Shown: positions 1,666 to 19,237 of the stretch, piece after piece | How positions within the stretch are numbered: position 1 is the first letter of the stretch | How the letters are laid out: each line of letters opens with the position of its first letter | Origin: Lachnospiraceae bacterium GAM79 | GTDB taxonomy: Bacteria; Bacillota_I; Bacilli_A; RFN20; CAG-826 | Assembly: GCA_963619035.1 (NCBI GenBank) | Contig: CAVEUC010000007.1 | Span: 3,127 to 67,126, forward strand | Direction of reading: 5' to 3' | Length of the DNA stretch: 64,000 bases | The notes under the pieces: generated by a model | What the model was told of the DNA's origin: nothing | The model's input: only the letters and a program-made list of their open reading frames with translations | Database searches by the model: none | Translations under genes and position numbers: made by a program

Positions 1666-1885
1666 ATAAAAATCTCCTTTTTGTTGTGTTATTAATATAA
1701 TATTAATAATTTCATTTGTCAAGTTTTCTAGTTTCAAGAACAAGATTAATAAAATTTATCTAGTAATTAAAACTAGATGTAATCGTATTGTAAATTTAAA
1801 ATCAAAATAATATCGATTAAATCGGTATTTTTGAAAAAATATAGAAAAATATAGCTTTATTATCTATAATATTAATGTTTTTATT

Positions 1886-2072: not shown

Positions 2073-2101
2073 TTGTAATTTTAGTAGATTAATTTTATAA
2101 T
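2073..2101 (+). promoter_or_regulatory. Candidate sigma-70-type promoter of the sulfoquinovose operon
   Basis: TTGTAA (2073-2078), 17-nt spacer, TATAAT (2096-2101). It lies 52 nt upstream of the ATG at 2154. Confidence 0.5.
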
Positions 2102-2121
2102 TTTTTAAGTAACTTAATTAA
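2101..2121. promoter_or_regulatory. Candidate operator (near-palindrome) overlapping the transcription start region
   Basis: TTTTTTAAGT-A-ACTTAATTAA matches 8 of 10 positions per arm. The core TTAAGTNACTTAA recurs at 10927-10939 in the transporter promoter region. Confidence 0.45.
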
Positions 2122-2153
2122 TTGCTAAAACATTTAGCGAAAGGACCTAAAAA

Positions 2154-4133
2154 ATGAATAAGGAAGAATTAAAACAATATTTCCTAAATCAACTTACTAA
2201 TGGAGATGCTTATCTCATAATTGGTAAGGGAAAAGCAAAATATAAGATGAAAAGAGGTTCTTTTACAACGAAAGATAATATAGTTGATAGAAGAAAACTT
2301 ACTTTTTCATTTAAAGACGAAAATAGATATATATTTACGGATGGTAAAGTTCAAGCTGAAATTATTGTTGATGAAGTTCCATATGTTAAATTTCATTTCC
2401 ATGTGGATAACGGATATAATCGTTTTACTTTAAGATTTAAAACATTTAAAGATGAACATATTTATGGATGTGGTGAACAATATACTGCTTTAGATTTAAA
2501 AGGAAAAGATGTACCTATCTGGGTAAGTGAACATCAACAAGTAATGAAAATTGCTAAAAAGCAATTAAGAGAAAGATTGCATGGTCCAAATCCTGATTAT
2601 GAAGCTCCTTATAAAGATCATCAAACATATTGTTCAACTCCTTCGTTTATGTCTAGTAAAGGATATGCAATTTATTGTCATGAAGATACGTATGGTTTCT
2701 TATCATTTAAAAAAGATGAATTGTTAATTAAATTTAGACAAATACCTCAATCTATATCGTTATTATGTGCGGATTCAATTTTAGAATTAGCACAAGAAGT
2801 TTCTAAATTAGTTGGTGTTCAACCTAAAGTTCCTTCTTGGGTTAATGATGGAGTTATTTTAGCAATTCAAGGTGGAAGTGAAGTTTTATTAAAGAAATAC
2901 GAAGAAGCTAAAAAAAGAGGTTTAAAAATATCCGCAATTTGGTGTCAAGATTGGTGTGGTAATGTAGTTACTAGTTTCGGATATCAAGTTTATTGGAACT
3001 GGGAAGCTGATGAAAAACTATATCCTAATTTAAAAGAGATAATTAAAAAGTTAAATAGTGAAGGTGTTAGATTCTTAGGTTATATAAATACATTTTTAAA
3101 AGAAGGATCTCCACAATATGAAGAAGCTAAGAAAAAAGAATTTTTAATTAGACATAAAAATGGAACAGTGTATCATATTAAATCTACTACGTTTAATGCT
3201 GGTATTGTTGATTTAACAAATCCAACTGCTAGAAATTGGTATAAAGAAATTATAAAGAAAAATATGATTGAATATGGTTTATCTGGATGGATGGCTGATT
3301 TTGGTGAATACCTTCCTACAGATTCTGTTTGTTATGGAGGAGAAAGTGAAAAACTTCATAATAGATGGCCAACTATGTGGGCGAAATGTAACTATGATGC
3401 AGTTCATGAATTGAATAAAGAAGATGAGTGCTTCTATTTTTCTAGAGCTGCATATGGTCATACTTTCCAATTTACTAATTCTGTTTGGAATGGTGATCAG
3501 CATGTTGATTATTCTGATGAATATGGGTTAGGATCGGTAATTCCTGCATGTATTTCATTAGCATGTTCAGGAGCTGGTGTGCTTCATTCAGATATTGGGG
3601 GATATACAACAATTTGTGTTTTAACAAGAATGGTCCGTGATGCTGAATTATTTAATCGTCGGTCAGAAATGAATATTTTTACTCCTATCTATAGAACTCA
3701 TGAAGGAAACCAACCTAAAAACAATGTTCAATATGATAACGAAAATACATATGATGAATTTATACAAAATACAAATTATTTTGTTAAATTAAAACCATAT
3801 AGAGAAAAACTATACCAAGAATATTACACAAATAATATTCCTATGATTAGACCTTTATTCTTCCATTATGATGAAGAAGAGGCATATAAAAATAAAAGAG
3901 AATATCTTTTTGGAAAAGATGTTGTTGTTTCTCCGGTTTTAAGACCAGGAGAAACTAAACATAAATACTATCTCCCTAAAGGTGAATGGGTACAATTCTT
4001 TACAAACAAAGAAGTGGAATCTGGCTTTGGAGAAGTTGATTCCCCAATTGGATTACCTATTGCTTTTTATAGAAAAGATAGTGAATTTACAGATTTATTT
4101 AAAAATTTAAAACAAGAAAATGGAGGAAAATAA
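2154..4133 (+). CDS. GH31 alpha-glycosidase, sulfoquinovosidase (YihQ/SftG)-like
   Basis: 659 aa. GH31 nucleophile motif GWMADFGE and acid/base motif WNGDQ. The segments AIWCQDWCG...VYWNW and HSDIGGY resemble YihQ-type enzymes. It is the first gene of a sulfoquinovose-type operon. Confidence 0.75.
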   Translation: MNKEELKQYFLNQLTNGDAYLIIGKGKAKYKMKRGSFTTKDNIVDRRKLTFSFKDENRYIFTDGKVQAEIIVDEVPYVKFHFHVDNGYNRFTLRFKTFKDEHIYGCGEQYTALDLKGKDVPIWVSEHQQVMKIAKKQLRERLHGPNPDYEAPYKDHQTYCSTPSFMSSKGYAIYCHEDTYGFLSFKKDELLIKFRQIPQSISLLCADSILELAQEVSKLVGVQPKVPSWVNDGVILAIQGGSEVLLKKYEEAKKRGLKISAIWCQDWCGNVVTSFGYQVYWNWEADEKLYPNLKEIIKKLNSEGVRFLGYINTFLKEGSPQYEEAKKKEFLIRHKNGTVYHIKSTTFNAGIVDLTNPTARNWYKEIIKKNMIEYGLSGWMADFGEYLPTDSVCYGGESEKLHNRWPTMWAKCNYDAVHELNKEDECFYFSRAAYGHTFQFTNSVWNGDQHVDYSDEYGLGSVIPACISLACSGAGVLHSDIGGYTTICVLTRMVRDAELFNRRSEMNIFTPIYRTHEGNQPKNNVQYDNENTYDEFIQNTNYFVKLKPYREKLYQEYYTNNIPMIRPLFFHYDEEEAYKNKREYLFGKDVVVSPVLRPGETKHKYYLPKGEWVQFFTNKEVESGFGEVDSPIGLPIAFYRKDSEFTDLFKNLKQENGGK

Positions 4134-4135
4134 AT

Positions 4136-4822
4136 ATGAAATACTTTCTTGATTCAGCAAAAATAAACGAAATTGATTATGCTTACAAAAATTATGGTAT
4201 TGATGGAGTTACTACAAATCCTAAACATATCATGAATAGCGGTAAACCTTTTATGCAAGCAATTACTGATATTGCTACATGGTTAAAAGAAAATGATTTA
4301 ATTGGAATGGATAAATTTCCTGTATCAGTAGAAATTAATCCTCATCTTGATAAAGCAGAAGATATGATTCGTGAAGCAAAAGTCATCGCAGCAATATGTG
4401 AAAATTTTGTTATTAAAATTCCATGTACTACAGAAGGTGTTAAAGCTGCTTATCAATTAGAAAAACAAGATCCTAGAATTAGAACAAATGTTACTTTAGT
4501 GTTTTCTCCTTCTCAAGCAATCCAAGCTGGAAGAATTAAAGCAAAATATGTATCTCCATTTATTGGATGGAAAGAAAATAGTGGTGAAGATACACATCAA
4601 TATATGGCTCAACTTGCTAAGATTTATAAAGATAAAGGTTATGAAACCGAAATTATTGCAGCAGCTATTAGAAATGGTAAACAAATTGCTGAAGCTGCTG
4701 AAATGGGTTGTGATATTGTTACTTGTGGATTAGCAGTATACGAAGAAAGTTTTAATCATCCATTTACAACTTATGGATTAGGTGTATTTACAGACGCTTG
4801 GGACCACACAAAGGGAAATTAA
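4136..4822 (+). CDS. Class-3 transaldolase/fructose-6-phosphate aldolase family; 6-deoxy-6-sulfofructose transaldolase (SftT)-like
   Basis: 228 aa. Motifs GVTTNP, the Schiff-base lysine context VIKIPCT, and YVSPFIGW. It starts 2 nt after the GH31 stop. Confidence 0.75.
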   Translation: MKYFLDSAKINEIDYAYKNYGIDGVTTNPKHIMNSGKPFMQAITDIATWLKENDLIGMDKFPVSVEINPHLDKAEDMIREAKVIAAICENFVIKIPCTTEGVKAAYQLEKQDPRIRTNVTLVFSPSQAIQAGRIKAKYVSPFIGWKENSGEDTHQYMAQLAKIYKDKGYETEIIAAAIRNGKQIAEAAEMGCDIVTCGLAVYEESFNHPFTTYGLGVFTDAWDHTKGN

Positions 4823-4823
4823 A

Positions 4824-5660
4824 ATGAAGATTGCTTTTATAGGATTAGGTATCATGGGTTTGCCTATGGCAACCAATGTATCAAAAAAATATGATTTAAT
4901 TGGATATGATGTGTTTAAAAAAGAAACATCATTTCCATTTGCTTCATCTTACAAAGAATGTGTAGAATTTGCAGATGTAATCATATCTATGGTTCCAAAA
5001 AATGAACATATGTTATCTTTATATTCTTCAATCAAACCTTATTTAAGAAAAGGTCAAATTTGGATTGATATGTCTACTATTTCTCCTTCAACAAATCAGC
5101 AAGTTGCAAAAGATTTAGAAGGTAGTGGAGTAGAAATTTTAGATTGTCCTGTAGTTAAATCTCAACCTGCAGCTATTAAAGGTGAACTTGGAATTTATGT
5201 AGGTGGTAATGAAGAAATATATAATAAAGTTAAACCAATTTTATCATGTATGGGAAAAAATATAATTTATATGGGAAACCATGGTGCAGGTCTTCAAATG
5301 AAAATTTTACATAATGGTTTAGTCGGTGAAATTCAAAATGGTGTTAATGAAATTTTAGGATTAGCAACAAAATTAGGATTGAATTTAGAACAAGTAGTAG
5401 AAGCTTTTGGGTATGGAGGAGCATCTTGCTTCTATCTAGATACAAAGGCTAAAAATATAATTTCCAATACTTATCCAACAGCTTTTTCAGTTGAAAATAT
5501 GAATAAAGATGTTCATTTTGCTAAAGAGATTGCTAATGAATTAAATAGCGATTGTCCAGGATTAGAAAATGTTGTTAAAATCTATGAAAAAGCTATGGAA
5601 AGAGGATTAGCTAAAGAAGATTTTTCAGCATCATATAAGATTGTAAATGAGGTAAAGTAA
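4824..5660 (+). CDS. NAD(P)-dependent beta-hydroxyacid dehydrogenase family; sulfolactaldehyde reductase (YihU)-like
   Basis: I moved the start to ATG 4824 (AAGGGA RBS). This puts the Rossmann motif MKIAFIGLGIMG at the N-terminus. The ORF-track start at 4782 overlaps the upstream gene. Confidence 0.7.
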   Translation: MKIAFIGLGIMGLPMATNVSKKYDLIGYDVFKKETSFPFASSYKECVEFADVIISMVPKNEHMLSLYSSIKPYLRKGQIWIDMSTISPSTNQQVAKDLEGSGVEILDCPVVKSQPAAIKGELGIYVGGNEEIYNKVKPILSCMGKNIIYMGNHGAGLQMKILHNGLVGEIQNGVNEILGLATKLGLNLEQVVEAFGYGGASCFYLDTKAKNIISNTYPTAFSVENMNKDVHFAKEIANELNSDCPGLENVVKIYEKAMERGLAKEDFSASYKIVNEVK

Positions 5661-5661
5661 T

Positions 5662-6993
5662 ATGAGAAAACCTATTATCGGTATTGTTTGTTTAGTTAGA
5701 AAAACTTTTGATTTTGAAACTGCTTTTAAACTTTATAAAGAAAGAAGTGCAAAAGTAATGGAAGATAATTCTATAGATTGGGTTTATTACCCAACTATGG
5801 TTATTGAACCAGATGAAGCAAAAAAAGCAGGAGAATTTTTTGTTGAAAAGCATGTAGATGCAGTTGTTGTAGTTTCTGCGACTTTCCATCTAGGTGGTTT
5901 AGCTTTAATTTTACACAATATCGTTAAAAAACCATTCTTATTACAAGGTTATAACGAATTACCATACAATGGTGGTAAAATTCGTTTAAATGCTGTTTGT
6001 GGTGTTAATTTAAATGCTTCTAATTTATATAAAGGTGGAGTTGATGATTTTATAGTTTATGTAGGAGATGATATCGATCACGATTGGGTTAAAGCTATAA
6101 AAATGAAAACTGCTTTAGAAAATTCTAATGTTGGATTGATCGGTTTTCATGCTCAAGGATTTTATAATGTTGGAGTAGATGAACTCCATTTATATAAAGA
6201 ATTAGGTATATTAATATCTCATTTTGAATTAAGTGATTTCTTTGGTGGAGAAGCTAAAGAAGAAGAGATTGATAAAGAAGAAAAAGAATTAAGAGAAACA
6301 TTTGATTGTAAAAAATTAAATGATAATCAAGTAAGACAAGTTTCTAGATTAATTGTAGTTGCTGAAAAATTCATGAAAGAAAAAGGGCTTGATGTTGTTG
6401 CGATTCGTTGTTGGCCAGAATTTGCTAAAAATTATGGTGTATCACCTTGTGCGATGATGTCTGTATTACAATCTAGAGGAATTTTATTAGCTTGCGAAGG
6501 CGATATTGAAGCTGCATTAAGCATGGTAGCTGTTAGAGCTGCAGGTGAAGAAACTCCATTTATGGCTGATTTATCACAAGTAAATTACGAAGAAAATTAC
6601 GCTTTATTATGGCATGATGGTGTTGCTCCTTGTAACTTATGGGATCGTAGATGTAATCGTTCATTAGAAACCTATTTTGCTGGAGGAAAAGGTGTCACAG
6701 CTGATTTTGTTTTAAAACCAGGTAAGATGTCTATTTTAAGAATTGATACTGCTAGAGGAAAAACAAGAATCTATTACGAAGAAGGTGAAGCTTTTGAAAT
6801 GAATAAGGATTTATCTGGAACGTATGCTAAAGTTGTTTTTAATAGACCTATTAATGAAGTTATTGATACAGTTACATATACTGGAGTTGCACATCACGTT
6901 ATTATGGGATATGTTCAATATAAAAAAGCAATGCAATATCTTGCTCGATTAATGAATTGGGAGATATTAGATGAAAATACTAAATGTTACTGA
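5662..6993 (+). CDS. L-fucose/L-arabinose isomerase-fold sugar isomerase; sulfoquinovose isomerase (SftI)-like
   Basis: 443 aa. It carries RCWPEF...SPC...LLACEGD, typical of the FucI/AraA-like family. It sits where the isomerase lies in SFT-type clusters. Confidence 0.65.
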   Translation: MRKPIIGIVCLVRKTFDFETAFKLYKERSAKVMEDNSIDWVYYPTMVIEPDEAKKAGEFFVEKHVDAVVVVSATFHLGGLALILHNIVKKPFLLQGYNELPYNGGKIRLNAVCGVNLNASNLYKGGVDDFIVYVGDDIDHDWVKAIKMKTALENSNVGLIGFHAQGFYNVGVDELHLYKELGILISHFELSDFFGGEAKEEEIDKEEKELRETFDCKKLNDNQVRQVSRLIVVAEKFMKEKGLDVVAIRCWPEFAKNYGVSPCAMMSVLQSRGILLACEGDIEAALSMVAVRAAGEETPFMADLSQVNYEENYALLWHDGVAPCNLWDRRCNRSLETYFAGGKGVTADFVLKPGKMSILRIDTARGKTRIYYEEGEAFEMNKDLSGTYAKVVFNRPINEVIDTVTYTGVAHHVIMGYVQYKKAMQYLARLMNWEILDENTKCY

Positions 6994-7585
6994 TAAAGAA
7001 TTTAAAGATTATGGATATGTATTAGATATAGATACTAAAGATATTGTAGATTATTTAAATAACAAATCTAAAATGCCTTTAGAAAACAACATTTATGTTA
7101 GAAATGATTCTAATATGCATACTTTAAATAATATTTCAAATATTAAAGAATATGTTTATGGATTAGGTGATATTGAAGTAGGTTATTGTAATGGATTTAA
7201 TTCACTATTAAATTGTATGGAATATCATACATGTCCTGAAGTTGATATTGCAGCTACTGATTTAGTTTTATTATTAGCAAAACAAGATGATATTCATGGT
7301 GAAATATTAAATTCTAAGGATGTTAAAGCATTCTTGGTTAAAAAAGGTCAAGCGGTAGTATTAAACCCTTATACATTACACTTTTCACCTTGTAAATTAT
7401 CCGAAGATGGATTTAGATGTGCTATCATTTTAACTGATAAAACTAATAGTGATTTAGAAGGCATAATAAACGATAAAAAACTTTGGAAAGTAAATAAATG
7501 GTTATTAGCTCATAAGGATTCTAAACAAGCTTCTTTAGGGGCTTATATTGGAATTGAAGGAGAAAACATTAAGGTAGATTATTAA
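6971..7585 (+). CDS. Small cupin-like protein of unknown function, DUF4867/SftX-like
   Basis: 204 aa. GGGAG RBS 7 nt upstream. It overlaps the isomerase gene by 23 nt. The family assignment is from memory of SFT cluster composition, not from a search. Confidence 0.5.
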   Translation: MKILNVTDKEFKDYGYVLDIDTKDIVDYLNNKSKMPLENNIYVRNDSNMHTLNNISNIKEYVYGLGDIEVGYCNGFNSLLNCMEYHTCPEVDIAATDLVLLLAKQDDIHGEILNSKDVKAFLVKKGQAVVLNPYTLHFSPCKLSEDGFRCAIILTDKTNSDLEGIINDKKLWKVNKWLLAHKDSKQASLGAYIGIEGENIKVDY

Positions 7586-7587
7586 TT

Positions 7588-8304
7588 ATGCTATATGATG
7601 CTTTATTTATTTTAATAATATTTTTAAGCAACATTATACAAACTATTACCGGATTTGCTGGAACAGCATTAGCGATGCCTTTATCTTTAAGATTAGAAGG
7701 AGCTGAAACTGCAAAACCGGTTTTAAATTTAGTTGCTCTTTTAGTGTGTGTTTATGTTGTCGTAGTCCATTTTAAAGATATTGATTGGAAAAATTTCTTA
7801 ATAATTTTAGGTGTTGTTGGACTAGGGTTTGCAACTGGTTATTTAGTTGATTTAATACCAATCGATGGAAAGATATTATTATATATTTATGGTGGAATAG
7901 TAATAGTAGTAAGCATTCTATTTTTCTTTATTGATTTTGAGAAGATTAAATTGCCGAAATGGGTGATGATAATATTTTTATTTTTAGGTGGAATAATGCA
8001 TAAATTATATGTTTCTGGTGGTCCTTTTGTAGTAATTTATGGGTTAAGAGAATTAAAAGATAAAAATAAGTTTAGAGCAACGTTATCTTTATTATGGATT
8101 ATTTTAAATTCTGTATTATTTACTACTCACATTGTACAGGGATTATTTACGACTCATGTTTGGATTTTATTTGGAATTGGAGCAGGAGCAACGATATTAT
8201 CTTTAGTTATAGGATCTTTAATTGCTCCTAAATTATCAAAAAAACTATTTTTGAAAATTACTTGTGTGCTTTTATTTATTTCAGGTGTTACACTATTTAT
8301 ATGA
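7588..8304 (+). CDS. TauE/SafE-family anion (sulfonate) exporter
   Basis: 238 aa. Polytopic and hydrophobic throughout, with the N-terminal motif ITGFAGTALAMPL. It matches the size and topology of TauE/SafE permeases. Confidence 0.6.
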   Translation: MLYDALFILIIFLSNIIQTITGFAGTALAMPLSLRLEGAETAKPVLNLVALLVCVYVVVVHFKDIDWKNFLIILGVVGLGFATGYLVDLIPIDGKILLYIYGGIVIVVSILFFFIDFEKIKLPKWVMIIFLFLGGIMHKLYVSGGPFVVIYGLRELKDKNKFRATLSLLWIILNSVLFTTHIVQGLFTTHVWILFGIGAGATILSLVIGSLIAPKLSKKLFLKITCVLLFISGVTLFI

Positions 8305-9266
8305 TAAGTTTAACTTCAACTCAGAAAAAAATTATTAGAATTCTTTTTGTAGAAAAAGAAAGTTCACGCTCAATATTAGCAAAAAAGTTAAATTTAACTA
8401 ATGCAGCGTTAACTTTAACTATGAAGCCTTTATTAGAAGAAGGTATTATTTTAGAATCTAAAAAAGATATTCAAAGAGTAGGAAGAAAAGAATTAATAAT
8501 TACTTTAAATTCTAAATATGGATATTTTTTAGGAATAGATATTAGAAAACATCATTTTTATTTTTCTTTGATGAATATATCAGGAGAATTAATTAAATTT
8601 GAAAGTGATAAAAATATAACTTTAAAAGATTTTTATAATGGTTATTTAGATGATATCATCGCAATAGGAATAACTATTAGAGGGAAAGCTGATTTAAGTA
8701 TAATTAAAGAAAAATATCCAGTATTTCACAGTGAAATTGAAAAATTAAATAAACCTTATTATTTATTTAATAATGTTAATTGTTTAGCTGATATTTATTC
8801 TTTGAATTATTATGATGATAAAAATTTCTTGTTAGTTAAATATGGTCCTGGTGTTGGTAGTTCGATTTATGTACATGGTAATCCATTAGGAAGTTCTTCT
8901 GAATTAGGACATATGTACTATCAAAGTAACACAGTTGAAGAATGTATTTCCTATTCATCAATTTTAGGAAAAGAATTGGAAGAAGACGAAGCAAATATAG
9001 AAATATTAAAAGATAATGAAAAACTTAAATATATTTTACATATATTGTCTTTTGCATTAATTAATGCTGATGCTTTATTATCTTTACAAAAAATTATTTT
9101 ATCTGGTGCTTTATTATCTAACGAAACAATAATTAAAGAATTAGAAAAAGAATTGATAAGTTTAAATAGCGACTTCGATATTAATAAACTTTGCTCTTAT
9201 CCAAATTATAACGATACAAATAATAAAAAAGGATCTATAGGAGCCTTTATAAAGTTATTTTCTTAA
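8301..9266 (+). CDS. ROK-family transcriptional regulator (N-terminal winged HTH plus sugar-kinase-like domain)
   Basis: I moved the start to ATG 8301 (ATGA overlap with the upstream stop). The ORF-track TTG start at 8262 is an extension. N-terminal HTH SRSILAKKLNLTNAALTLTMKPLLEEGII; ROK-like core GIDIRKHHFY. The Cys-rich ROK zinc motif is absent. Confidence 0.65.
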   Translation: MISLTSTQKKIIRILFVEKESSRSILAKKLNLTNAALTLTMKPLLEEGIILESKKDIQRVGRKELIITLNSKYGYFLGIDIRKHHFYFSLMNISGELIKFESDKNITLKDFYNGYLDDIIAIGITIRGKADLSIIKEKYPVFHSEIEKLNKPYYLFNNVNCLADIYSLNYYDDKNFLLVKYGPGVGSSIYVHGNPLGSSSELGHMYYQSNTVEECISYSSILGKELEEDEANIEILKDNEKLKYILHILSFALINADALLSLQKIILSGALLSNETIIKELEKELISLNSDFDINKLCSYPNYNDTNNKKGSIGAFIKLFS

Positions 9267-9276
9267 AAACCATATG

Positions 9277-9308
9277 AAAAGCCTACTCAAATTAGAGTAG
9301 GCTTTTTT
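9277..9308. terminator. Bidirectional rho-independent terminator between convergent genes
   Basis: Stem-loop GCCTACTC-AAATTA-GAGTAGGC flanked by A4 upstream and T6 downstream. Confidence 0.85.
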
Positions 9309-9320
9309 GAATTTAGTTAA

Positions 9321-10844
9321 TTATTTAGATTCTGTATCCCCGATAATGATTTCATTATTAGCTGCTTGTTGAGCTAATAAAACTTCTTTTTCTGATTGTA
9401 ATTCTTCAGTTTTATGTTTATTTAATCCATACATAAATAACATTACTAAACCTAATATTAAGAATAAACCAGCAGGAATAGCAGTAGCCATATAATACAT
9501 TAAATTAAGTGTTTCTGCAGATTGAACTGCGCCGTTATAAGATTTGTAGTTAGAACCAAGCAAAGCAGCATTAACAGCAATAGCAGCGACTACTTGACCC
9601 ATCTTTCTAAAAAACATGAAGATAGAATATGATGAACCGTCGTTTCTTAAACCCGTTTTAACTTCAACATCATCGATTGCATCGGTTGCTAATGCCCACA
9701 TTTCTAAGTTGATTATTGATAAACCAATTCCGCTAATTAAACAGAAAATTAAGAATAAGAATGGATATTGAACGATTATATCTTTCATAAAGATTAATAC
9801 GAAGTTAGGTATTGCAGCAACAATTCCTCCAATTGCACAAAGTTCTTTTTTACCAAATTTTCTAACTAATTTTCCAGCGAAGAACATCAACACAACCATA
9901 GGACCGTAAGTGCATGCTTGCGAAGCTAAATTAAGCCAGTTTGCTGCAAATAAATCATTAAATAGATATGTGTAGAAAGATTGAGTGAACATTTGACCAG
10001 CTAACAATAATAAACCAGTTAAACAAACAGCTACAAAGCTTCTATTTTTCATTAAGATTTTAATAATTTTTCTTGTTTCACCTTTTTCGTGTTCTCTAGG
10101 AACTGCGATAACTCTTTCTTTATTAGTTTTATAAGCTACAAATAAAAGAACACATGCAATAACTGCTAAAATTGAAACACCGATGATAATATAAGGATAT
10201 TGAATTTGAGTAAGTTGTTTTCCATTTTCTCCAATAACTGGATTTCCGGCTTCATCAAAGATTTTTTTACCATAAATTGAAGTGATGACTAAAACAGGAA
10301 TTGAACCTAATGCAGAACCAGCAGATCTAAATACTGATAATTTATTTCTTTCTTTTGCGTCTGTTGTAACAACACTAGCTAAAGAACCGTATGGAATTTG
10401 ATGCATTGTATAAATCATACCAAATGCAATATAAGTAACTGTTGCGTATATACAAATTCCAACAGTTCCAATCTTTTCAGCAAATCCAGACCAAGGTAAG
10501 AACATCAATATTGTTGAAACAGCTAATGGTATTGCAACCCATTTCATCCAAACTCTGTATCTTCCTTCTTTCTTTGGCCTTTTTAAATCTACGATTCTTC
10601 CCATGATAGGATCGTTTATTGCGTCCCATACACGAGCGACAATAAACATAATCATAATAAATAAAGGACTAATTCCTAAAATATCGGTGTAATATTTTTG
10701 AAGGAGAGTCATAACGCTAGAAAAGCATAAGCATCCAGCAAAATCACCTAAAGCGTAACCGATATAGTCCTTACTTTTTAAACCTGAAGTTTGAGATATG
10801 TAAGATCTTGCGCCTTCAGCAGTGTTTTTATTTTCATTTTCCAT
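9321..10844 (-). CDS. MFS glycoside-pentoside-hexuronide (GPH):cation symporter, YihO-like candidate sulfoquinovose/SQ-glyceride importer
   Basis: 507 aa, about 12 TM. GPH signature ARVWDAINDPIMGRIVD in the first cytoplasmic loop. Confidence 0.75.
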   Translation of the reverse strand: MENENKNTAEGARSYISQTSGLKSKDYIGYALGDFAGCLCFSSVMTLLQKYYTDILGISPLFIMIMFIVARVWDAINDPIMGRIVDLKRPKKEGRYRVWMKWVAIPLAVSTILMFLPWSGFAEKIGTVGICIYATVTYIAFGMIYTMHQIPYGSLASVVTTDAKERNKLSVFRSAGSALGSIPVLVITSIYGKKIFDEAGNPVIGENGKQLTQIQYPYIIIGVSILAVIACVLLFVAYKTNKERVIAVPREHEKGETRKIIKILMKNRSFVAVCLTGLLLLAGQMFTQSFYTYLFNDLFAANWLNLASQACTYGPMVVLMFFAGKLVRKFGKKELCAIGGIVAAIPNFVLIFMKDIIVQYPFLFLIFCLISGIGLSIINLEMWALATDAIDDVEVKTGLRNDGSSYSIFMFFRKMGQVVAAIAVNAALLGSNYKSYNGAVQSAETLNLMYYMATAIPAGLFLILGLVMLFMYGLNKHKTEELQSEKEVLLAQQAANNEIIIGDTESK

Positions 10845-10922
10845 AATGTGTTCTTACAATCTTTTAAATAGATTGCCCCTTTATGTAAAAATATAAACCA
10901 TTTTAAAGTATAATGCTAGTAT

Positions 10923-10943
10923 TTTTTTAAGTGACTTAAAAAA
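10923..10943. promoter_or_regulatory. Candidate operator (perfect palindrome) in the transporter promoter region
   Basis: TTTTTTAAGT-G-ACTTAAAAAA is a perfect 10-1-10 inverted repeat. It lies 79-99 nt upstream of the minus-strand start codon at 10844 and has the same core as 2105-2117. Confidence 0.45.
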
Positions 10944-10992
10944 TTAATTTAAATTTAAGTTTTGTATTATATTTTTAAAAAAATAAACAAAT

Positions 10993-11017
10993 AAAAAGCA
11001 CATATATTAATATGTGC
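10993..11017 (-). terminator. Rho-independent terminator of the ABC/lipoprotein operon
   Basis: On the minus strand: stem GCACATAT, loop TAAT, stem ATATGTGC, then T5. It lies 8 nt after the stop of the 416-aa gene. Confidence 0.75.
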
Positions 11018-11024
11018 ATAATAT

Positions 11025-12275
11025 TTATTTAATTAAATTATTTTTCTTCTTTTTCTTTAATATAAAAATTGTTAAAAATATTATTAAACCAATTAATAAG
11101 ATAGAACCGATAATAGATAAAGAAAGAATAAGTGGTAAGCTTAATTTAGTATTTGTATCTTCTATTAAAACAACATAATTTCCTAATTTATCATTTTTAA
11201 ATTTAATATATCTACCATACCCTTCACAATCTATATTTTCTAGATTATCTTCATTTATATAATAAACTTTAACTTTATTTCTATTATAGTTTGGATTTGT
11301 TTCTATAAAACACTCAATATTATCTAGTAAAGATATCGAATCACCATTAGAATCTATAATGTTTAAATTAGTTATTTCAAATGTTGAAGAAATGTTACTA
11401 ACTAAATTTAAAATTTTATTATATGTTGTTCCAGATTCAATTCTTTGACATTGGATAATATAATCATTAGGTAAAATATTATTAATATCATTAATTTTAA
11501 CCATGTTACTTTCTATAGCATTACTAGTTAAAATAATTGTTTGTTTAGAATATGAATCATTACCTAAATTTGTCTTATATTCGTTTGTAGATGCTTTAAA
11601 ATCTATTGTGTAATCTCCTAATTCATCTACAAATATTTTATTGTCTTCAATTGGAATATTTTTTCCACTAGGAGAGGTTACTAAAGTAGAGACTTCTAGA
11701 TTAGAATCGTTAAAACTAGCTGTAGCTGAAGGTAATTTATAATATGAATTAAGTGTTGTTTCGATATTTCCTACTTCATCAATATTTAATATAGGAACAA
11801 ATCTAGCAGGATATTCTTTATTAATATCAACTTTATTTTCACTTTTAGTTAAATTATCTAAATTAGCTTTAATAGTAAAAGATATATCCATTCCCATTTT
11901 AGCTACAGATCCAGATAACTTTAATTCATTAATTAAATCTTCATATGAAAGAGTTATTGTGTATGTTGTTTTTTGTCCATTAATTTCTTCTTCAATACCG
12001 CTTTTTAAATTGGATGAAGGTAAAGATATATTTAATGATGATAAAGCATCGTTATTTAATAAAGTAATTGATAAAAAATATAATTCATCTTCTTTTACGA
12101 TATTAATTTCATCATCAAAATATTTTGAAATCATTTGATTTCCAATTTGACTAGTTCCACCTATTTCATAATTTGTTGAATAAATATAATAATCTTCAAT
12201 AGTAGTAGAAGTAATATTTTCACTTAATGGATTTAAAGGGAATAATAATAATGTTGTGAGTAATAATAGTTTCAT
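11025..12275 (-). CDS. Surface protein with cleavable signal peptide and C-terminal membrane anchor, unknown function
   Basis: 416 aa. N-terminus MKLLLLTTLLLFPL. C-terminal TM LILSLSIIGSILLIGLIIFLTIFIL followed by KKKKKNN. It starts 3 nt after the upstream gene. No catalytic motif recognised. Confidence 0.7.
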   Translation of the reverse strand: MKLLLLTTLLLFPLNPLSENITSTTIEDYYIYSTNYEIGGTSQIGNQMISKYFDDEINIVKEDELYFLSITLLNNDALSSLNISLPSSNLKSGIEEEINGQKTTYTITLSYEDLINELKLSGSVAKMGMDISFTIKANLDNLTKSENKVDINKEYPARFVPILNIDEVGNIETTLNSYYKLPSATASFNDSNLEVSTLVTSPSGKNIPIEDNKIFVDELGDYTIDFKASTNEYKTNLGNDSYSKQTIILTSNAIESNMVKINDINNILPNDYIIQCQRIESGTTYNKILNLVSNISSTFEITNLNIIDSNGDSISLLDNIECFIETNPNYNRNKVKVYYINEDNLENIDCEGYGRYIKFKNDKLGNYVVLIEDTNTKLSLPLILSLSIIGSILLIGLIIFLTIFILKKKKKNNLIK

Positions 12276-12278
12276 ATA

Positions 12279-16211: not shown

Positions 16212-16231
16212 AAACCCTCCTTTCTAATAAT

Positions 16232-19210: not shown

Positions 19211-19237
19211 ATGTATTTTCTCCTTTAATTAATAATT

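What the first reader, a model, noticed from the sequence alone, without database searches (positions are those of the whole stretch)
2073..10943. Complete sulfoquinovose catabolic locus of the sulfo-transaldolase (SFT) type, predicted to excrete DHPS
**Gene content.** Eight co-localised genes cover every step of the SFT sulfoglycolysis route described around 2020 for Bacillus and gut Firmicutes:
- a GPH-family importer (9321-10844, convergent);
- a YihQ-like GH31 glycosidase (2154-4133);
- a fucose-isomerase-fold isomerase (5662-6993);
- an FSA/TalC-type transaldolase (4136-4822);
- a beta-hydroxyacid-dehydrogenase-type reductase (4824-5660);
- a DUF4867-like protein (6971-7585);
- a TauE/SafE exporter (7588-8304);
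- a ROK regulator (8301-9266).

**Organisation.** The seven plus-strand genes are 1-2 nt apart or overlap, which indicates one operon.

**Predicted product.** A YihU-type reductase is present rather than an aldehyde dehydrogenase. This predicts 2,3-dihydroxypropanesulfonate, not sulfolactate, as the excreted product. DHPS is a cross-feeding substrate for sulfite-respiring gut bacteria.

**Why it is interesting.** The pathway is known. The host context, a small AT-rich Mollicutes-like genome, and the ROK-type regulator are the notable parts.
Basis: partly seen in the sequence, partly recalled or inferred. Interest (0 to 1): 0.6.

Follow-up and report, generated by a model that had tools for sequence, protein, structure and literature searches.

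The report
Sulfoquinovose transaldolase operon, arginine-less glycosidase
This is a real, complete gene cluster that should let a small wall-less gut bacterium ferment the plant sulfo-sugar sulfoquinovose by the known transaldolase route and excrete DHPS, and its one unusual feature is a glycosidase from a large untested sister group that lacks the arginine used to recognise sulfoquinovosidases.

Summary
In detail: all eight genes lie at the stated coordinates, and seven form one tightly packed operon.

**What supports the transaldolase (SFT) reading**
- The transaldolase is about 70% identical to the solved Bacillus megaterium sulfofructose transaldolase. It is the only transaldolase-family gene found in the 80%-complete assembly.
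- The DUF4867 protein keeps its metal ligands.
- The TauE exporter, GPH importer and ROK regulator pass profile searches.
- Gene order is conserved in more than 30 related genomes.
- Glycolysis genes and a canonical pyruvate formate-lyase are present. No SlaB-type aldehyde dehydrogenase or DHPS lyase was found, so DHPS excretion is the likely outcome.

**Three parts are non-canonical**
- The GH31 enzyme has Gln278 where sulfoquinovosidases have the sulfonate-binding Arg301. It belongs to a sister clade that sits in SFT and transketolase sulfoglycolysis clusters of many lineages, including cultured Butyrivibrio.
- The isomerase is a divergent SftI relative.
- The reductase lacks YihU's sulfonate residues, but matches the reductases of canonical SFT clusters.

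**Regulation.** A palindrome, TTAAGTNACTTAA, occurs only twice in the genome. Both copies are at the locus's promoters, and the site is conserved in 25 relatives.

**Earlier notes.** The scan had already noted this operon type and the arginine-less glycosidase on other DNA.

**Verdict.** A known pathway with variant parts, of moderate interest.

The parts
2073..2101 (+). Operon promoter candidate: TTGTAA, 17 nt, TATAAT
   Evidence: Consensus scan, 10 of 12 matches. The TATAAT lies directly upstream of the palindrome in 25 related loci whose flanks have diverged.
2105..2117 (.). Operator O1: palindrome core TTAAGTAACTTAA, starting 3 nt after the -10 box
   Evidence: It is one of only two exact copies of TTAAGTNACTTAA in the 1.26-Mb assembly. 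It is conserved at the same place upstream of the GH31 gene in 25 relatives. It is absent from L001 and L003, which lack the ROK gene.
2154..4133 (+). YihQ-like GH31 glycosidase of the Gln-type sister clade; putative sulfoquinovosidase. Residues: Q239, Q265, Q278 (= E. coli R301), W281, D382 (nucleophile), D448 (acid/base), H450, Y484.
   Evidence: NF007746 scores 679 bits against a cut-off of 553. It scores 502 bits to E. coli YihQ 5AED and 485 bits to E. rectale SftG 6PNR.
4136..4822 (+). Sulfofructose transaldolase (SftT/SqvA orthologue). K94 is the Schiff-base lysine. It carries the GWKEN motif.
   Evidence: It scores 297 bits to BmSF-TAL 8BC3, against 157 bits to Thermotoga transaldolase 1VPX. 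K94 aligns with Lys89, the Schiff-base residue (PMC12890257). It reads SPFIGWKEN where ordinary transaldolase has SPFVGRMDD. It is the only TAL_FSA gene found in the assembly.
4824..5660 (+). Beta-hydroxyacid-dehydrogenase-family reductase; putative sulfolactaldehyde reductase (SftR type, not a YihU orthologue)
   Evidence: It has the NAD_binding_2 and NAD_binding_11 domains. It is 46-47% identical to the reductases in SFT clusters that carry Arg-type sulfoquinovosidases (G190, G393). It is 28% identical to YihU: K171 is kept as K160, N174 becomes H163, and S178 becomes V167.
5662..6993 (+). Divergent SftI-like aldose-ketose isomerase; putative sulfoquinovose isomerase
   Evidence: NF048012 gives E = 4.6e-55 over residues 9-434, but 187 bits against a cut-off of 700. 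The AlphaFold model (pLDDT 83.7, pTM 0.88) matches L-arabinose isomerase at TM 0.80 and L-fucose isomerase at TM 0.70. RCWP, E279, D281, D303, H318 and H412 are invariant across both isomerase types. The same type sits in G190's SFT cluster beside an Arg-type sulfoquinovosidase.
6971..7585 (+). DUF4867 cupin protein (SftX); accessory, function unknown
   Evidence: PF16161, E = 5.6e-65. It scores 151 bits to the B. megaterium DUF4867 structure 9GYY. The metal ligands Glu97, His99, Glu103 and His150 named in PMC11968277 align with E84, H86, E90 and H137.
7588..8304 (+). TauE/SafE-family exporter; putative DHPS exporter
   Evidence: PF01925, 66 bits against a cut-off of 32.6. It is about 34% identical to the TauE genes in the G190 and G393 SFT clusters.
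8301..9266 (+). ROK-family regulator with an N-terminal winged helix-turn-helix; putative repressor of both transcription units
   Evidence: PF00480, 31 bits against a cut-off of 22.9, plus HTH_24. The start codon overlaps the TauE stop (ATGA). The gene co-occurs with the palindrome across relatives.
9277..9306 (.). Bidirectional hairpin terminator between the convergent ROK and GPH genes
   Evidence: A 12-bp stem followed by a T-run on the + strand and four T on the - strand.
9321..10844 (-). GPH-family cation symporter; putative importer of sulfoquinovose or its glycoside
   Evidence: TIGR00792, 265 bits against a cut-off of 231. It is 24% identical over its full length to E. coli YihO, E = 4e-41. 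GPH genes sit beside Gln-type GH31 genes in other genomes.
10927..10939 (.). Operator O2: TTAAGTGACTTAA, the core of a perfect 21-bp palindrome at 10923-10943, 83-95 nt upstream of the GPH start codon
   Evidence: It is the second of the two copies in the genome. A second copy also lies on the GPH side of the locus in 9 of the related loci (L005, L012, L017, L024-L026, L033, L034).

Best explanation
The locus is a sulfoglycolysis operon of the sulfofructose-transaldolase (sulfo-SFT / sulfo-TAL) type, in a wall-less, small-genome, AT-rich member of the Bacilli.

**Proposed mechanism**
1. A ROK-family repressor (8301-9266) binds the palindrome TTAAGTNACTTAA at two sites. One lies just after the -10 box of the seven-gene operon. 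The other lies in the promoter of the convergent GPH symporter gene. A sulfosugar presumably releases the repressor.
2. The symporter imports sulfoquinovose (SQ) or an SQ glycoside such as sulfoquinovosyl glycerol.
3. The GH31 enzyme releases SQ.
4. The SftI-like isomerase converts SQ to sulfofructose.
5. The transaldolase forms a Schiff base through Lys94. It transfers the C1-C3 dihydroxyacetone unit to glyceraldehyde-3-phosphate, giving fructose-6-phosphate and sulfolactaldehyde.
6. The reductase uses NADH to make 2,3-dihydroxypropanesulfonate (DHPS), and the TauE protein exports it.
7. Fructose-6-phosphate enters glycolysis, and pyruvate goes to pyruvate formate-lyase. The fermentation is redox-balanced, as in E. 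rectale.

**What is shown by computation:** gene presence, homology, key residues, conserved synteny, the conserved operator and the host's gene content.

**What is inferred:** every substrate, the inducer, the repressor role and the excreted product.

**The least certain step** is the glycosidase. It has Gln in place of the sulfonate-binding Arg. I take it to be a sulfoquinovosidase with a remodelled sulfonate pocket. Invariant H127, K136 and H450 replace neutral or acidic residues found in the Arg-type clade.
For: **Transaldolase**
- It scores 297 bits (about 70% identity) to BmSF-TAL, against 157 bits to an ordinary transaldolase.
- It has GWKEN where ordinary enzymes have the phosphate-binding GRMDD, and K94 aligns with Lys89.
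- It is the only TAL_FSA gene found in the assembly.
- Transaldolases linked to Gln-type and Arg-type GH31 genes form one tight family, unresolved by GH31 type.

**Other parts**
- DUF4867 keeps its metal ligands.
- The TauE, GPH and ROK profiles pass.
- The reductase is 46-47% identical to the reductases of SFT clusters that carry Arg-type sulfoquinovosidases.
- The isomerase type also occurs in such a cluster (G190).
- Its model has the L-arabinose/L-fucose isomerase fold, and the acidic and His residues invariant across both isomerase types are kept.

**GH31**
- It passes the YihQ model (679 bits against a cut-off of 553).
- It keeps Q239, Q265, W281, D382, D448 and Y484.
- Its clade is sister to the validated sulfoquinovosidases.
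- The clade sits in sulfoglycolysis clusters of two pathway types in several lineages: 16 of 21 Gln-type metagenome loci of at least 11 kb carry SFT, TK or isomerase/DUF4867 markers, usually with no second GH31.
- It also sits in the sulfo-TK clusters of G047, G177, G222 and G012.
- It sits in the cluster of cultured Butyrivibrio sp. FCS014.

**Synteny and operator**
- The operon order is conserved in more than 30 genomes.
- The operator occurs only twice in the genome, both times in the locus, and is conserved in 25 relatives.

**Host gene content**
- PFK, FBA and TIM are present, and so is a canonical PflB.
- The only Aldedh hit is an 875-aa AdhE-like ORF.
Against: - Arg301, a defining sulfonate ligand of the Q/E-RWY motif (PMC8006165, PMC12780224), is Gln278. 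The conserved Arg294 equivalent is also lost.
- No member of the Gln clade has been assayed, to my knowledge.
- In four sampled genomes a Gln-type and an Arg-type GH31 lie in or within about 15 kb of one sulfo-TK cluster; a fifth genome (G259) carries both about 350 kb apart. This suggests the two are not fully redundant.
- The reductase lacks YihU's Asn174 and Ser178.
- The isomerase scores far below the SftI equivalog cut-off.
- The assembly is only 80% complete, so the absence of an SLA dehydrogenase or of further sulfonate-processing genes is not proven.
- No expression or metabolite data could be obtained.
Confidence: 0.8

Rival explanations
1. The pathway is SFT sulfoglycolysis, but the Gln-type GH31 is not a sulfoquinovosidase. 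It would hydrolyse a different alpha-glycoside: a differently substituted SQ conjugate, or a non-sulfonated alpha-glucoside released from the same plant lipids. The operon would then depend on free SQ taken up by the GPH symporter.
For: - Arg301 is replaced by Gln, and the Arg294 equivalent is lost.
- The Gln clade is a separate sister clade with seven clade-specific positions.
- Four sampled genomes keep a Gln-type and an Arg-type enzyme in or beside one sulfo-TK cluster, each next to its own transporter (GPH or ABC). In G177 a GH2 glycosidase follows the Gln-type gene.
Against: - In this lineage and in most Gln-type SFT loci sampled, it is the only GH31 in the cluster. In this window it is the first gene of the operon, under the same operator as the importer.
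- W281 and Y484 of the sulfonate triad, and both Gln residues of the QQ pair, are kept.
- The clade gained invariant H127, K136 and H450 where the Arg clade has Q/P, D/N and S/N. This is compatible with charge compensation.
- Sulfonate pockets without a side-chain Arg contact are known, for example YihU (PMC8006165).
Confidence: 0.17
2. The locus runs the SFT pathway, but the excreted product is not DHPS. Sulfolactaldehyde would be oxidised to sulfolactate by an unlinked or unassembled dehydrogenase, or DHPS would be processed further. The co-encoded dehydrogenase would then have another substrate.
For: - The reductase is not a YihU orthologue and lacks YihU's sulfonate-binding Asn174 and Ser178.
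- The assembly is 80% complete.
- Enterococcus gilvus encodes a reductase yet excreted sulfolactate (PMC7491151).
Against: - No SlaB-type aldehyde dehydrogenase was found. The only Aldedh hit is an 875-aa AdhE-like ORF.
- The only PFL-family enzyme of normal length has the Cys-Cys and RVSGY motifs of pyruvate formate-lyase, not those of a sulfonate lyase.
- The reductase is conserved in operon position, between the transaldolase and the isomerase, in all relatives. It is 46-47% identical to the reductases of canonical SFT clusters.
- Strict anaerobes with this layout, E. rectale and C. symbiosum, excrete DHPS (PMC7491151).
Confidence: 0.1
3. The locus catabolises a non-sulfonated 6-deoxy or other alpha-glucoside through an analogous isomerase, transaldolase and reductase sequence. 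The TauE protein would be a generic anion exporter.
For: Three enzymes depart from their characterised sulfo-specific counterparts: GH31 has Arg to Gln, the reductase lacks the YihU pocket, and the isomerase is far from SftI.
Against: - The transaldolase is about 70% identical to the enzyme solved with sulfofructose. It shares the replacement of the phosphate-binding Arg (GWKEN).
- Transaldolases next to Gln-type and Arg-type GH31 genes are one family.
- Per PMC11968277, the DUF4867 cluster that holds SftX lies in sulfoglycolytic neighbourhoods (SFT 86, sulfo-EMP 23 and sulfo-TK 15 of 127 members).
- Gln-type GH31 genes also sit in sulfo-TK clusters.
- A TauE exporter is conserved in the operon.
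Confidence: 0.03

Closest known systems
Sulfo-SFT cluster of Eubacterium rectale / Agathobacter rectalis (SftA, SftG, SftI, SftT, SftR, SftX, SftE; PMC7491151, PMC11968277)
   Same: It has the same set of functions: importer, GH31 glycosidase, isomerase, SF transaldolase, SLA reductase, DUF4867 and TauE-type exporter. It has the same predicted fermentation, SQ to pyruvate plus DHPS. The host is an anaerobic gut bacterium.
   Different: E. rectale SftG (6PNR) has the Arg of the RWY triad (FGKRLQW), whereas the window has FGYQVYW. The window's isomerase is a divergent subfamily. The host is a wall-less bacterium of about 1.3-1.6 Mb. The regulator here is a short ROK protein.
Bacillus aryabhattai SOS1 / B. 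megaterium sulfo-TAL cluster (SftT/SqvA structure 8BC3; DUF4867 structure 9GYY)
   Same: The transaldolase is about 70% identical and has the same GWKEN motif and Schiff-base lysine. DUF4867 scores 151 bits, with all four metal ligands kept.
   Different: The Bacillus clusters use an SLA dehydrogenase and excrete sulfolactate. B. aryabhattai has a GntR regulator (PMC7491151). Their isomerase is the SftI type on which NF048012 is built, against which the window's isomerase scores only 187 bits.
Butyrivibrio sp. FCS014 cluster (GCA_000526935.1, JAHA01000006.1; uncharacterised, cultured rumen isolate)
   Same: It encodes GH31 of the Gln type (FGYQVMW, GDQH), a GPH/MFS_2 transporter, TAL, a reductase, TauE, a fucose-isomerase-like protein and a ROK regulator in one co-directional block.
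   Different: The GH31 group it belongs to is about 40% identical to the window's protein. No DUF4867 gene was called in the locus. The gene order differs. The ROK protein is full length (382 aa). The host is a member of the Clostridia.
E. coli yih sulfo-EMP cluster (YihQ, YihS, YihV, YihT, YihU, YihO/P, CsqR)
   Same: The GH31 enzyme is YihQ-like (502 bits). The importer is GPH-family like YihO (24% identity, E = 4e-41). The end product is DHPS, made by a beta-hydroxyacid dehydrogenase family reductase.
   Different: E. coli cleaves sulfofructose with a kinase and an aldolase instead of a transaldolase. Its isomerase fold differs (YihS). Its regulator is a DeoR protein. In YihQ, R301 is Q278 here. 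In YihU, N174 and S178 are H163 and V167 here.
Sulfoacetate-forming sulfo-TK variant of Acholeplasma sp. (Chu et al. 2023, as cited in PMC11659671 and PMC12890257) and Mariniplasma sp. MZ-QX with two yihQ copies (PMC13219744)
   Same: This is sulfoglycolysis in Acholeplasma-type relatives (small genomes; wall-lessness is background knowledge, not tested here).
   Different: They use a transketolase route ending in sulfoacetate, not a transaldolase route ending in DHPS. The window's genome has only the Gln-type GH31.

Membership tests
Sulfo-SFT (sulfo-TAL) sulfoglycolysis gene cluster | A sulfofructose transaldolase (SftT/SqvA) orthologue distinct from ordinary TalC/FSA | tested here: met
   It scores 297 bits to BmSF-TAL, against 157 bits to Thermotoga transaldolase. 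K94 aligns with Lys89. GWKEN replaces GRMDD. It scores below the cut-off of every ordinary Tal/FSA NCBIfam model.
Sulfo-SFT (sulfo-TAL) sulfoglycolysis gene cluster | A co-encoded SQ isomerase of the SftI/SqvD family | tested here: inconclusive
   NF048012 is the only family hit and covers the full length (E = 4.6e-55), but at 187 bits against an equivalog cut-off of 700. SftI-type proteins in other clusters score 428-593 bits. The fold and invariant core residues are shared. The same divergent type sits in G190's SFT cluster beside an Arg-type sulfoquinovosidase.
Sulfo-SFT (sulfo-TAL) sulfoglycolysis gene cluster | A co-encoded SLA reductase (DHPS branch) or SLA dehydrogenase (sulfolactate branch) | tested here: met
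   A beta-hydroxyacid dehydrogenase family reductase lies between the TAL and isomerase genes. It is 46-47% identical to the reductases of the G190 and G393 SFT clusters. There is no aldehyde dehydrogenase in the locus, and only an AdhE-like one in the assembly. Substrate not tested.
Sulfo-SFT (sulfo-TAL) sulfoglycolysis gene cluster | Accessory genes: DUF4867 (SftX), a TauE-type exporter and a sugar importer | tested here: met
   PF16161 E = 5.6e-65; PF01925 E = 4e-18; TIGR00792 265 bits against a cut-off of 231.
Sulfo-SFT (sulfo-TAL) sulfoglycolysis gene cluster | SQ turnover to DHPS or sulfolactate, and induction by SQ | not testable with these tools
   This needs culture or enzyme work.
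GH31 sulfoquinovosidase (YihQ/SftG) | GH31 catalytic nucleophile and acid/base Asp (E. coli D405, D472) | tested here: met
   D382 (WMADFGE) and D448 (NGDQH) align with D405 and D472.
GH31 sulfoquinovosidase (YihQ/SftG) | Sulfonate-binding Arg of the Q/E-RWY motif (E. coli R301, A. tumefaciens R283) | tested here: not met
   The residue is Gln278 (FGYQVYWNW). All four structurally characterised sulfoquinovosidases have Arg there. Gln is invariant in the 15-member Gln-clade alignment and in all related loci.
GH31 sulfoquinovosidase (YihQ/SftG) | Trp and Tyr of the triad (W304, Y508) and the Q262/Q288 pair | tested here: met
   W281, Y484, Q239 and Q265.
GH31 sulfoquinovosidase (YihQ/SftG) | Placement inside the clade of biochemically validated sulfoquinovosidases | tested here: not met
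   In a FastTree of 133 YihQ-like proteins, the window falls in a 16-row Gln clade (SH-like support 98). That clade is sister to the 21-row clade holding E. coli YihQ and the Arg-type enzymes (support 97; joint node 92). NF007746 scores are 655-710 bits for the Gln type and 894-1247 bits for the Arg type.
YihU-type sulfolactaldehyde reductase | Equivalog-level similarity to YihU, plus the sulfonate pocket Asn174-Ser178 with catalytic Lys171 | tested here: not met
   NF012005 scores 130 bits against a cut-off of 348, and identity is 28%. K171 is kept (K160), but N174 becomes H163 and S178 becomes V167. The same holds in all SFT-linked reductases aligned.
ROK-family transcriptional repressor (NagC/Mlc/XylR type) | An N-terminal winged helix-turn-helix plus a ROK sugar-binding domain, with a palindromic operator at the regulated promoters | tested here: met
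   PF00480 scores 31 bits against a cut-off of 22.9, and HTH_24 is at residues 5-50. At 321 aa the protein is shorter than typical ROK repressors. The operator candidate occurs twice in the genome, at both promoters, and is conserved in 25 relatives. Binding was not tested.

The most novel reading that the evidence does not exclude
The Gln-type YihQ-like GH31 enzymes are genuine sulfoquinovosidases that hold the sulfonate without the canonical arginine. They would use Gln278 plus clade-specific H127, K136 and H450. They form a large sister family that is the sole glycosidase of many gut and rumen sulfoglycolysis clusters. Where an Arg-type copy coexists, the Gln type would serve a different SQ glycoside or transporter route. 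If so, the RWY rule used to call sulfoquinovosidases misses, or mislabels, much of the SQ-releasing capacity of anaerobic gut communities.
Probability: 0.6. Interest if true: 0.6.

Novelty: new variant of a known kind. Interest (0 to 1): 0.45.

Why it matters
[quoted passage not shown] In guts, its fermentation to DHPS feeds sulfite-respiring bacteria that make H2S.

- **New carriers.** The locus shows the transaldolase route in wall-less, roughly 1.3-Mb Bacilli. It is an accessory trait there: present in 8 of 59 genomes of the genus and 13 of 300 of the family.
- **A challenge to the identification rule.** It is a clean example of a widespread cluster type whose glycosidase breaks the motif now used to identify sulfoquinovosidases. 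If the Gln-type enzyme is active on SQ glycosides, surveys and structural rules for SQ release need revising.
- **Or a new player.** If the enzyme is not active on SQ glycosides, these clusters hold an unrecognised second glycosidase specificity tied to sulfolipid breakdown.
- **A testable regulator.** The conserved operator and ROK gene give a ready regulator-operator pair for a sulfosugar-responsive switch.

Tried and rejected
- **Papers not held.** I tried to read Speciale 2016, Abayakoon 2018 and Snow 2023 for mutational and structural detail on R301 and on the transaldolase's sulfonate pocket. None is held. Statements about R301 therefore rest on PMC8006165 and PMC12780224 only.
- **Host naming failed.**
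  - No 16S gene is in the assembly.
  - The cluster look-up gave no names.
  - Record titles of near-identical related MAGs are mutually inconsistent.
  - Only 'Bacilli bacterium' labels on homologues are usable.
- **A second sulfoglycolysis cluster, rejected.** I considered the PFK-like and class II aldolase-like genes on contig C24 as a sulfo-EMP2 cluster. Their neighbours are an amidohydrolase, a DeoR regulator, an aldose epimerase, a TIM-like protein and a LarA-like protein. There is no isomerase, DUF4867 or GH31 gene.
- **A DHPS sulfolyase, rejected.** I considered the PFL-family enzyme on C26. It has the Cys-Cys and RVSGY motifs of pyruvate formate-lyase.
- **Strict residue coupling, rejected.** I asked whether H450 (E. 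coli N474) always accompanies Gln at position 301. It does not: Gln also occurs with Leu or Met in other branches.
- **No pocket geometry.** Structure prediction returns no coordinates. I could not test whether H127, K136 or H450 lie near the sulfonate site.

Full report
**1. Observation**

The seven plus-strand genes are separated by 2, 1 and 1 nt, a 23-nt overlap, 2 nt and a 4-nt ATGA overlap.

A promoter-like TTGTAA-17-TATAAT lies at 2073-2101. A hairpin at 9277-9306, with T-runs on both strands, separates the last operon gene from the convergent transporter gene.

Profile searches support each assignment:
- GH31 domains, and the YihQ model NF007746 at 679 bits (cut-off 553).
- TAL_FSA.
- The NAD_binding_2/11 pair.
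- SftI model NF048012 at E = 4.6e-55.
- DUF4867 at E = 5.6e-65.
- TauE at E = 4e-18.
- ROK plus a winged helix.
- GPH TIGR00792 at 265 bits (cut-off 231).

The order GH31-TAL-reductase-isomerase-DUF4867-TauE-ROK recurs in about 30 species-level genomes, with 72-96% identical proteins. It recurs with variations in more distant ones.

**2. The transaldolase anchors the pathway**

- It scores 297 bits (about 70% identity) against the solved Bacillus megaterium sulfofructose transaldolase. The Thermotoga transaldolase scores 157 bits and FSA scores less than 70 bits.
- Lys94 aligns with the Schiff-base Lys89.
- Ordinary transaldolase has the phosphate-binding SPFVGRMDD. Both the solved sulfo-enzyme and this protein have SPF(V/I)GWKEN.
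- It is the only TAL_FSA gene in the assembly, so it is not a housekeeping enzyme.
- A tree of transaldolases from clusters with either kind of GH31 shows one tight family, far from the ordinary enzyme and unresolved by GH31 type.

**3. The glycosidase is the odd part**

It is clearly YihQ-like: 502 bits to E. coli YihQ and 485 bits to E. rectale SftG, against 127 bits or less to other GH31 structures. It keeps these residues:
- the nucleophile, D382;
- the acid/base, D448;
- the Gln pair, Q239 and Q265;
- Trp281 and Tyr484 of the sulfonate triad.

But Arg301 of the Q/E-RWY motif (PMC8006165, PMC12780224) is Gln278. All four structurally characterised sulfoquinovosidases have Arg there. A second conserved Arg, E. 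coli R294, is also gone.

This is not a quirk of one genome. Every related locus has Gln. Among the 150 best 50%-identity representatives, 85 have Gln and 58 have Arg.

In a tree, the window's protein lies in a well-supported Gln clade. That clade is sister to the clade that holds E. coli YihQ and the Arg-type enzymes of SFT and TK clusters. Seven positions separate the two clades, written window residue / E. coli residue:

| Window residue | E. coli residue |
|---|---|
| V120 | F146 |
| V124 | T150 |
| H127 | Q153 |
| K136 | N158 (D/N in the Arg clade) |
| Q278 | R301 |
| T345 | G368 |
| H450 | N474 |

The Gln clade therefore lost one cation and gained three potentially cationic residues. I could not test whether these lie near the sulfonate site.

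**4. What the Gln-type enzyme is associated with**

- In four of them (G047, G177, G222, G012) the two copies lie 4-14 kb apart.
- The Arg-type copy sits with DUF4867, ABC transporter genes, an SftI-type isomerase, split transketolase, an RpiB-like isomerase, a CoA-acylating aldehyde dehydrogenase and an ADP-forming CoA ligase.
- That is the sulfoacetate-forming sulfo-TK layout reported for Acholeplasma (PMC11659671).
- The Gln-type copy lies at the end of, or next to, that cluster, usually behind a GPH transporter gene.

*Metagenome scan.* The scan was seeded with the Gln-clade alignment, so it is biased towards that clade.
- 16 of 21 Gln-type loci of at least 11 kb carry sulfoglycolysis markers: 12 with the SF transaldolase and 4 with transketolase and the RpiB-like isomerase (SqwI).
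- Only one of the 80 loci holds a second, Arg-type GH31.

*Cultured strains.* Rumen isolates Butyrivibrio sp. VCB2006, FCS014 and JL13D10 carry Gln-type enzymes. In FCS014 the gene heads a block of GPH, TAL, reductase, TauE, isomerase and ROK.

The Gln clade is therefore tied to sulfoglycolysis in at least two pathway types and several lineages. In most SFT clusters sampled it is the only candidate for SQ release.

I conclude that it most likely works as a sulfoquinovosidase. It fails the motif and clade tests for membership of the validated family. The coexistence of both types in some clusters leaves room for a distinct substrate.

**5. Isomerase**

NF048012 (SftI) is its only curated family hit and spans the whole protein, but at 187 bits against a cut-off of 700. 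Two types exist, by NF048012 score:

| Protein | Type | Score (bits) |
|---|---|---|
| G393 (SFT cluster) | SftI type | 593 |
| G047 (TK cluster) | SftI type | 428 |
| Window | window type | 187 |
| G190 (SFT cluster) | window type | 206 |

G190 combines the window type with an Arg-type sulfoquinovosidase in an SFT cluster. This links the type to sulfoglycolysis independently of the Gln-type GH31.

Both types share RCWP, E279, D281, D303, H318 and H412. An AlphaFold model (pLDDT 83.7, pTM 0.88) superposes on L-arabinose isomerase at TM 0.80 and on D-arabinose and L-fucose isomerases at TM 0.70-0.73. No relative with a solved structure was found by sequence.

**6. Reductase and product**

The reductase is a beta-hydroxyacid dehydrogenase.
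- It is 28% identical to YihU. It keeps catalytic Lys171 (K160) but not YihU's sulfonate-binding Asn174 and Ser178, which are H163 and V167 here.
- It is 46-47% identical to the reductases of the SFT clusters of G190 and G393. It shares their motifs PVVKSQPAA, MK(I/L)xHN and TAFSVxNMxKD. It belongs to an SFT-linked subfamily rather than to the YihU orthologue group.
- The only Aldedh hit in the assembly is an 875-aa AdhE-like ORF.
- The large glycyl-radical enzyme is a canonical pyruvate formate-lyase.
- PFK, class II FBA and TIM are present, and a gap-pgk-tpi block lies in the window itself.

This fits the balanced fermentation SQ + ADP + Pi -> pyruvate + DHPS + ATP described for E. rectale and C. 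symbiosum (PMC7491151). DHPS excretion remains an inference, and the assembly is only 80% complete.

**7. DUF4867, exporter, importer**

- DUF4867 scores 151 bits to the B. megaterium structure. It keeps all four metal ligands, E84, H86, E90 and H137. Its biochemical role is still unknown (PMC11968277).
- TauE is about 34% identical to the TauE genes of other SFT clusters.
- The GPH protein is 24% identical to E. coli YihO over its full length.

**8. Regulation**

I followed a lead from the scan's own notes.
- The palindrome TTAAGTNACTTAA occurs exactly twice in the 1.26-Mb assembly. One copy is at 2105-2117, starting 3 nt after the -10 box. The other is at 10927-10939, in a perfect 21-bp palindrome 83-95 nt upstream of the GPH start.
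- From base composition about one copy is expected by chance in the whole genome. The signal therefore lies in the placement and conservation, not in the count.
- In 25 relatives the TATAAT plus palindrome block is conserved while the flanks diverge. Only single-base variants occur in the core.
- Several relatives have a second copy on the transporter side.
- Loci that lack the ROK gene (L001, L003) lack the palindrome.

This is good comparative evidence for a ROK-controlled regulon of two transcription units. Binding and the inducer are untested. ROK genes also occur in SFT or TK clusters of G190, G393, G222 and Butyrivibrio, so the regulator family is not unusual for this pathway.

**9. Host and distribution**

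- The assembly is 1.26 Mb in 69 contigs, 80% complete, with about 27% GC across the window.
- TGA is a stop codon.
- No PBP transpeptidase or FtsW/RodA gene was found in it. No transpeptidase was found in any of 40 genomes of the genus that are at least 90% complete. A wall-less, Mollicutes-like lifestyle is well supported.
- Homologues are labelled 'Bacilli bacterium'. A finer name could not be obtained.
- The SF transaldolase was found in 8 of 59 other genomes of the genus, 13 of 300 of the family and 4 of 400 of the phylum sample. The locus is an accessory trait.
- Sulfoglycolysis in a Mollicutes-type relative has been reported for Acholeplasma by the transketolase route (PMC12890257). Sulfoglycolysis in such hosts is therefore not new, but I found no report of the transaldolase route in them.

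**10. Comparison and verdict**

The locus works like the published sulfo-SFT clusters of E. rectale and Bacillus, and I file it there. It is a variant in three respects:
- The glycosidase is of an untested Arg-less sister clade.
- The isomerase is a divergent SftI relative.
- The reductase is SFT-linked but not YihU-like.

The scan had already noted this operon type and the Arg-less glycosidase on other DNA (e1-1432287, e1-4338843, e1-4644629). My analysis reached the same reading independently.

My analysis adds:
- the clade-specific residues;
- the two-copy sulfo-TK context;
- the cultured Butyrivibrio carriers;
- the second isomerase type;
- the genome-wide uniqueness and phylogenetic footprint of the operator.

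Interest is moderate. The pathway is known. The glycosidase question is sharp, broadly relevant to gut and rumen surveys, and directly testable.

Noticed in passing
G000 contig C24, about 7200-19500 (outside the window; locus L071): A YjjI-like glycyl-radical enzyme with its radical-SAM activase lies next to a block of Mbeg1-like protein, class II aldolase-like, PFK-like, amidohydrolase, aldose epimerase, DeoR regulator, TIM-like and LarA-N-domain proteins. It is a second set of glycolysis-like paralogues of unknown substrate. It is not a sulfoglycolysis cluster.
   Followed up: partly
Whole genus of G000 (genome search): No PF00905 transpeptidase was found in 0 of 40 genomes that are at least 90% complete (0.9-1.7 Mb). 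FtsW/RodA is also absent from G000. The genus appears to be wall-less while reading TGA as a stop codon.
   Followed up: partly
L062 5130-9465 (G177:C25), L060/L061 (G047:C8), L064 (G222:C8), L065/L066 (G012:C1): These sulfoacetate-type sulfo-TK clusters carry two YihQ-like GH31 genes. An Arg-type copy sits with ABC transporter genes. A Gln-type copy usually sits behind a GPH transporter gene. In G177 a GH2 glycosidase gene directly follows the Gln-type gene. This may correspond to the 'two yihQ copies' noted for Mariniplasma in PMC13219744.
   Followed up: partly
Tree of 133 YihQ-like GH31 proteins: The residue at E. coli position 301 switches between Arg and Gln at least 8 times (well-supported branches only), and 17 times by parsimony, across the wider family. 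The more distant 81 rows (about 33% identity, 700-770 aa) mix both states. Their functions are unknown.
   Followed up: no
L004-L034 (genome contigs records): Near-identical loci (isomerase 86-94% identical) come from MAG records titled Alistipes, Faecalibacterium, Prevotella, Slackia, Lachnospiraceae and so on. These titles cannot all be right for 27%-GC small-genome Bacilli. The organism names of that submission look unreliable.
   Followed up: no
L092 8991-18620 (metagenome contig JAEEGL013053154.1): This is the only locus of the 80 metagenome loci in which a Gln-type (FGYQVMW) and an Arg-type (FGKRLQW) GH31 lie about 7.5 kb apart beside an SF transaldolase gene.
   Followed up: no
L001 12217-13766: In one distant relative an IS200/IS605 pair (Y1 transposase plus OrfB/TnpB-like) lies between the TauE end of the SFT cluster and the MFS transporter gene. 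That cluster has a TetR gene upstream instead of ROK, and has no DUF4867.
   Followed up: no
window 1-1743 (-) and 11025-12275 (-): The two genes flanking the locus (at least 581 aa, and 416 aa) have no Pfam or NCBIfam hit. The 416-aa protein has an N-terminal signal-like segment and a C-terminal membrane anchor. It belongs to the neighbouring operon treated in another finding.
   Followed up: no
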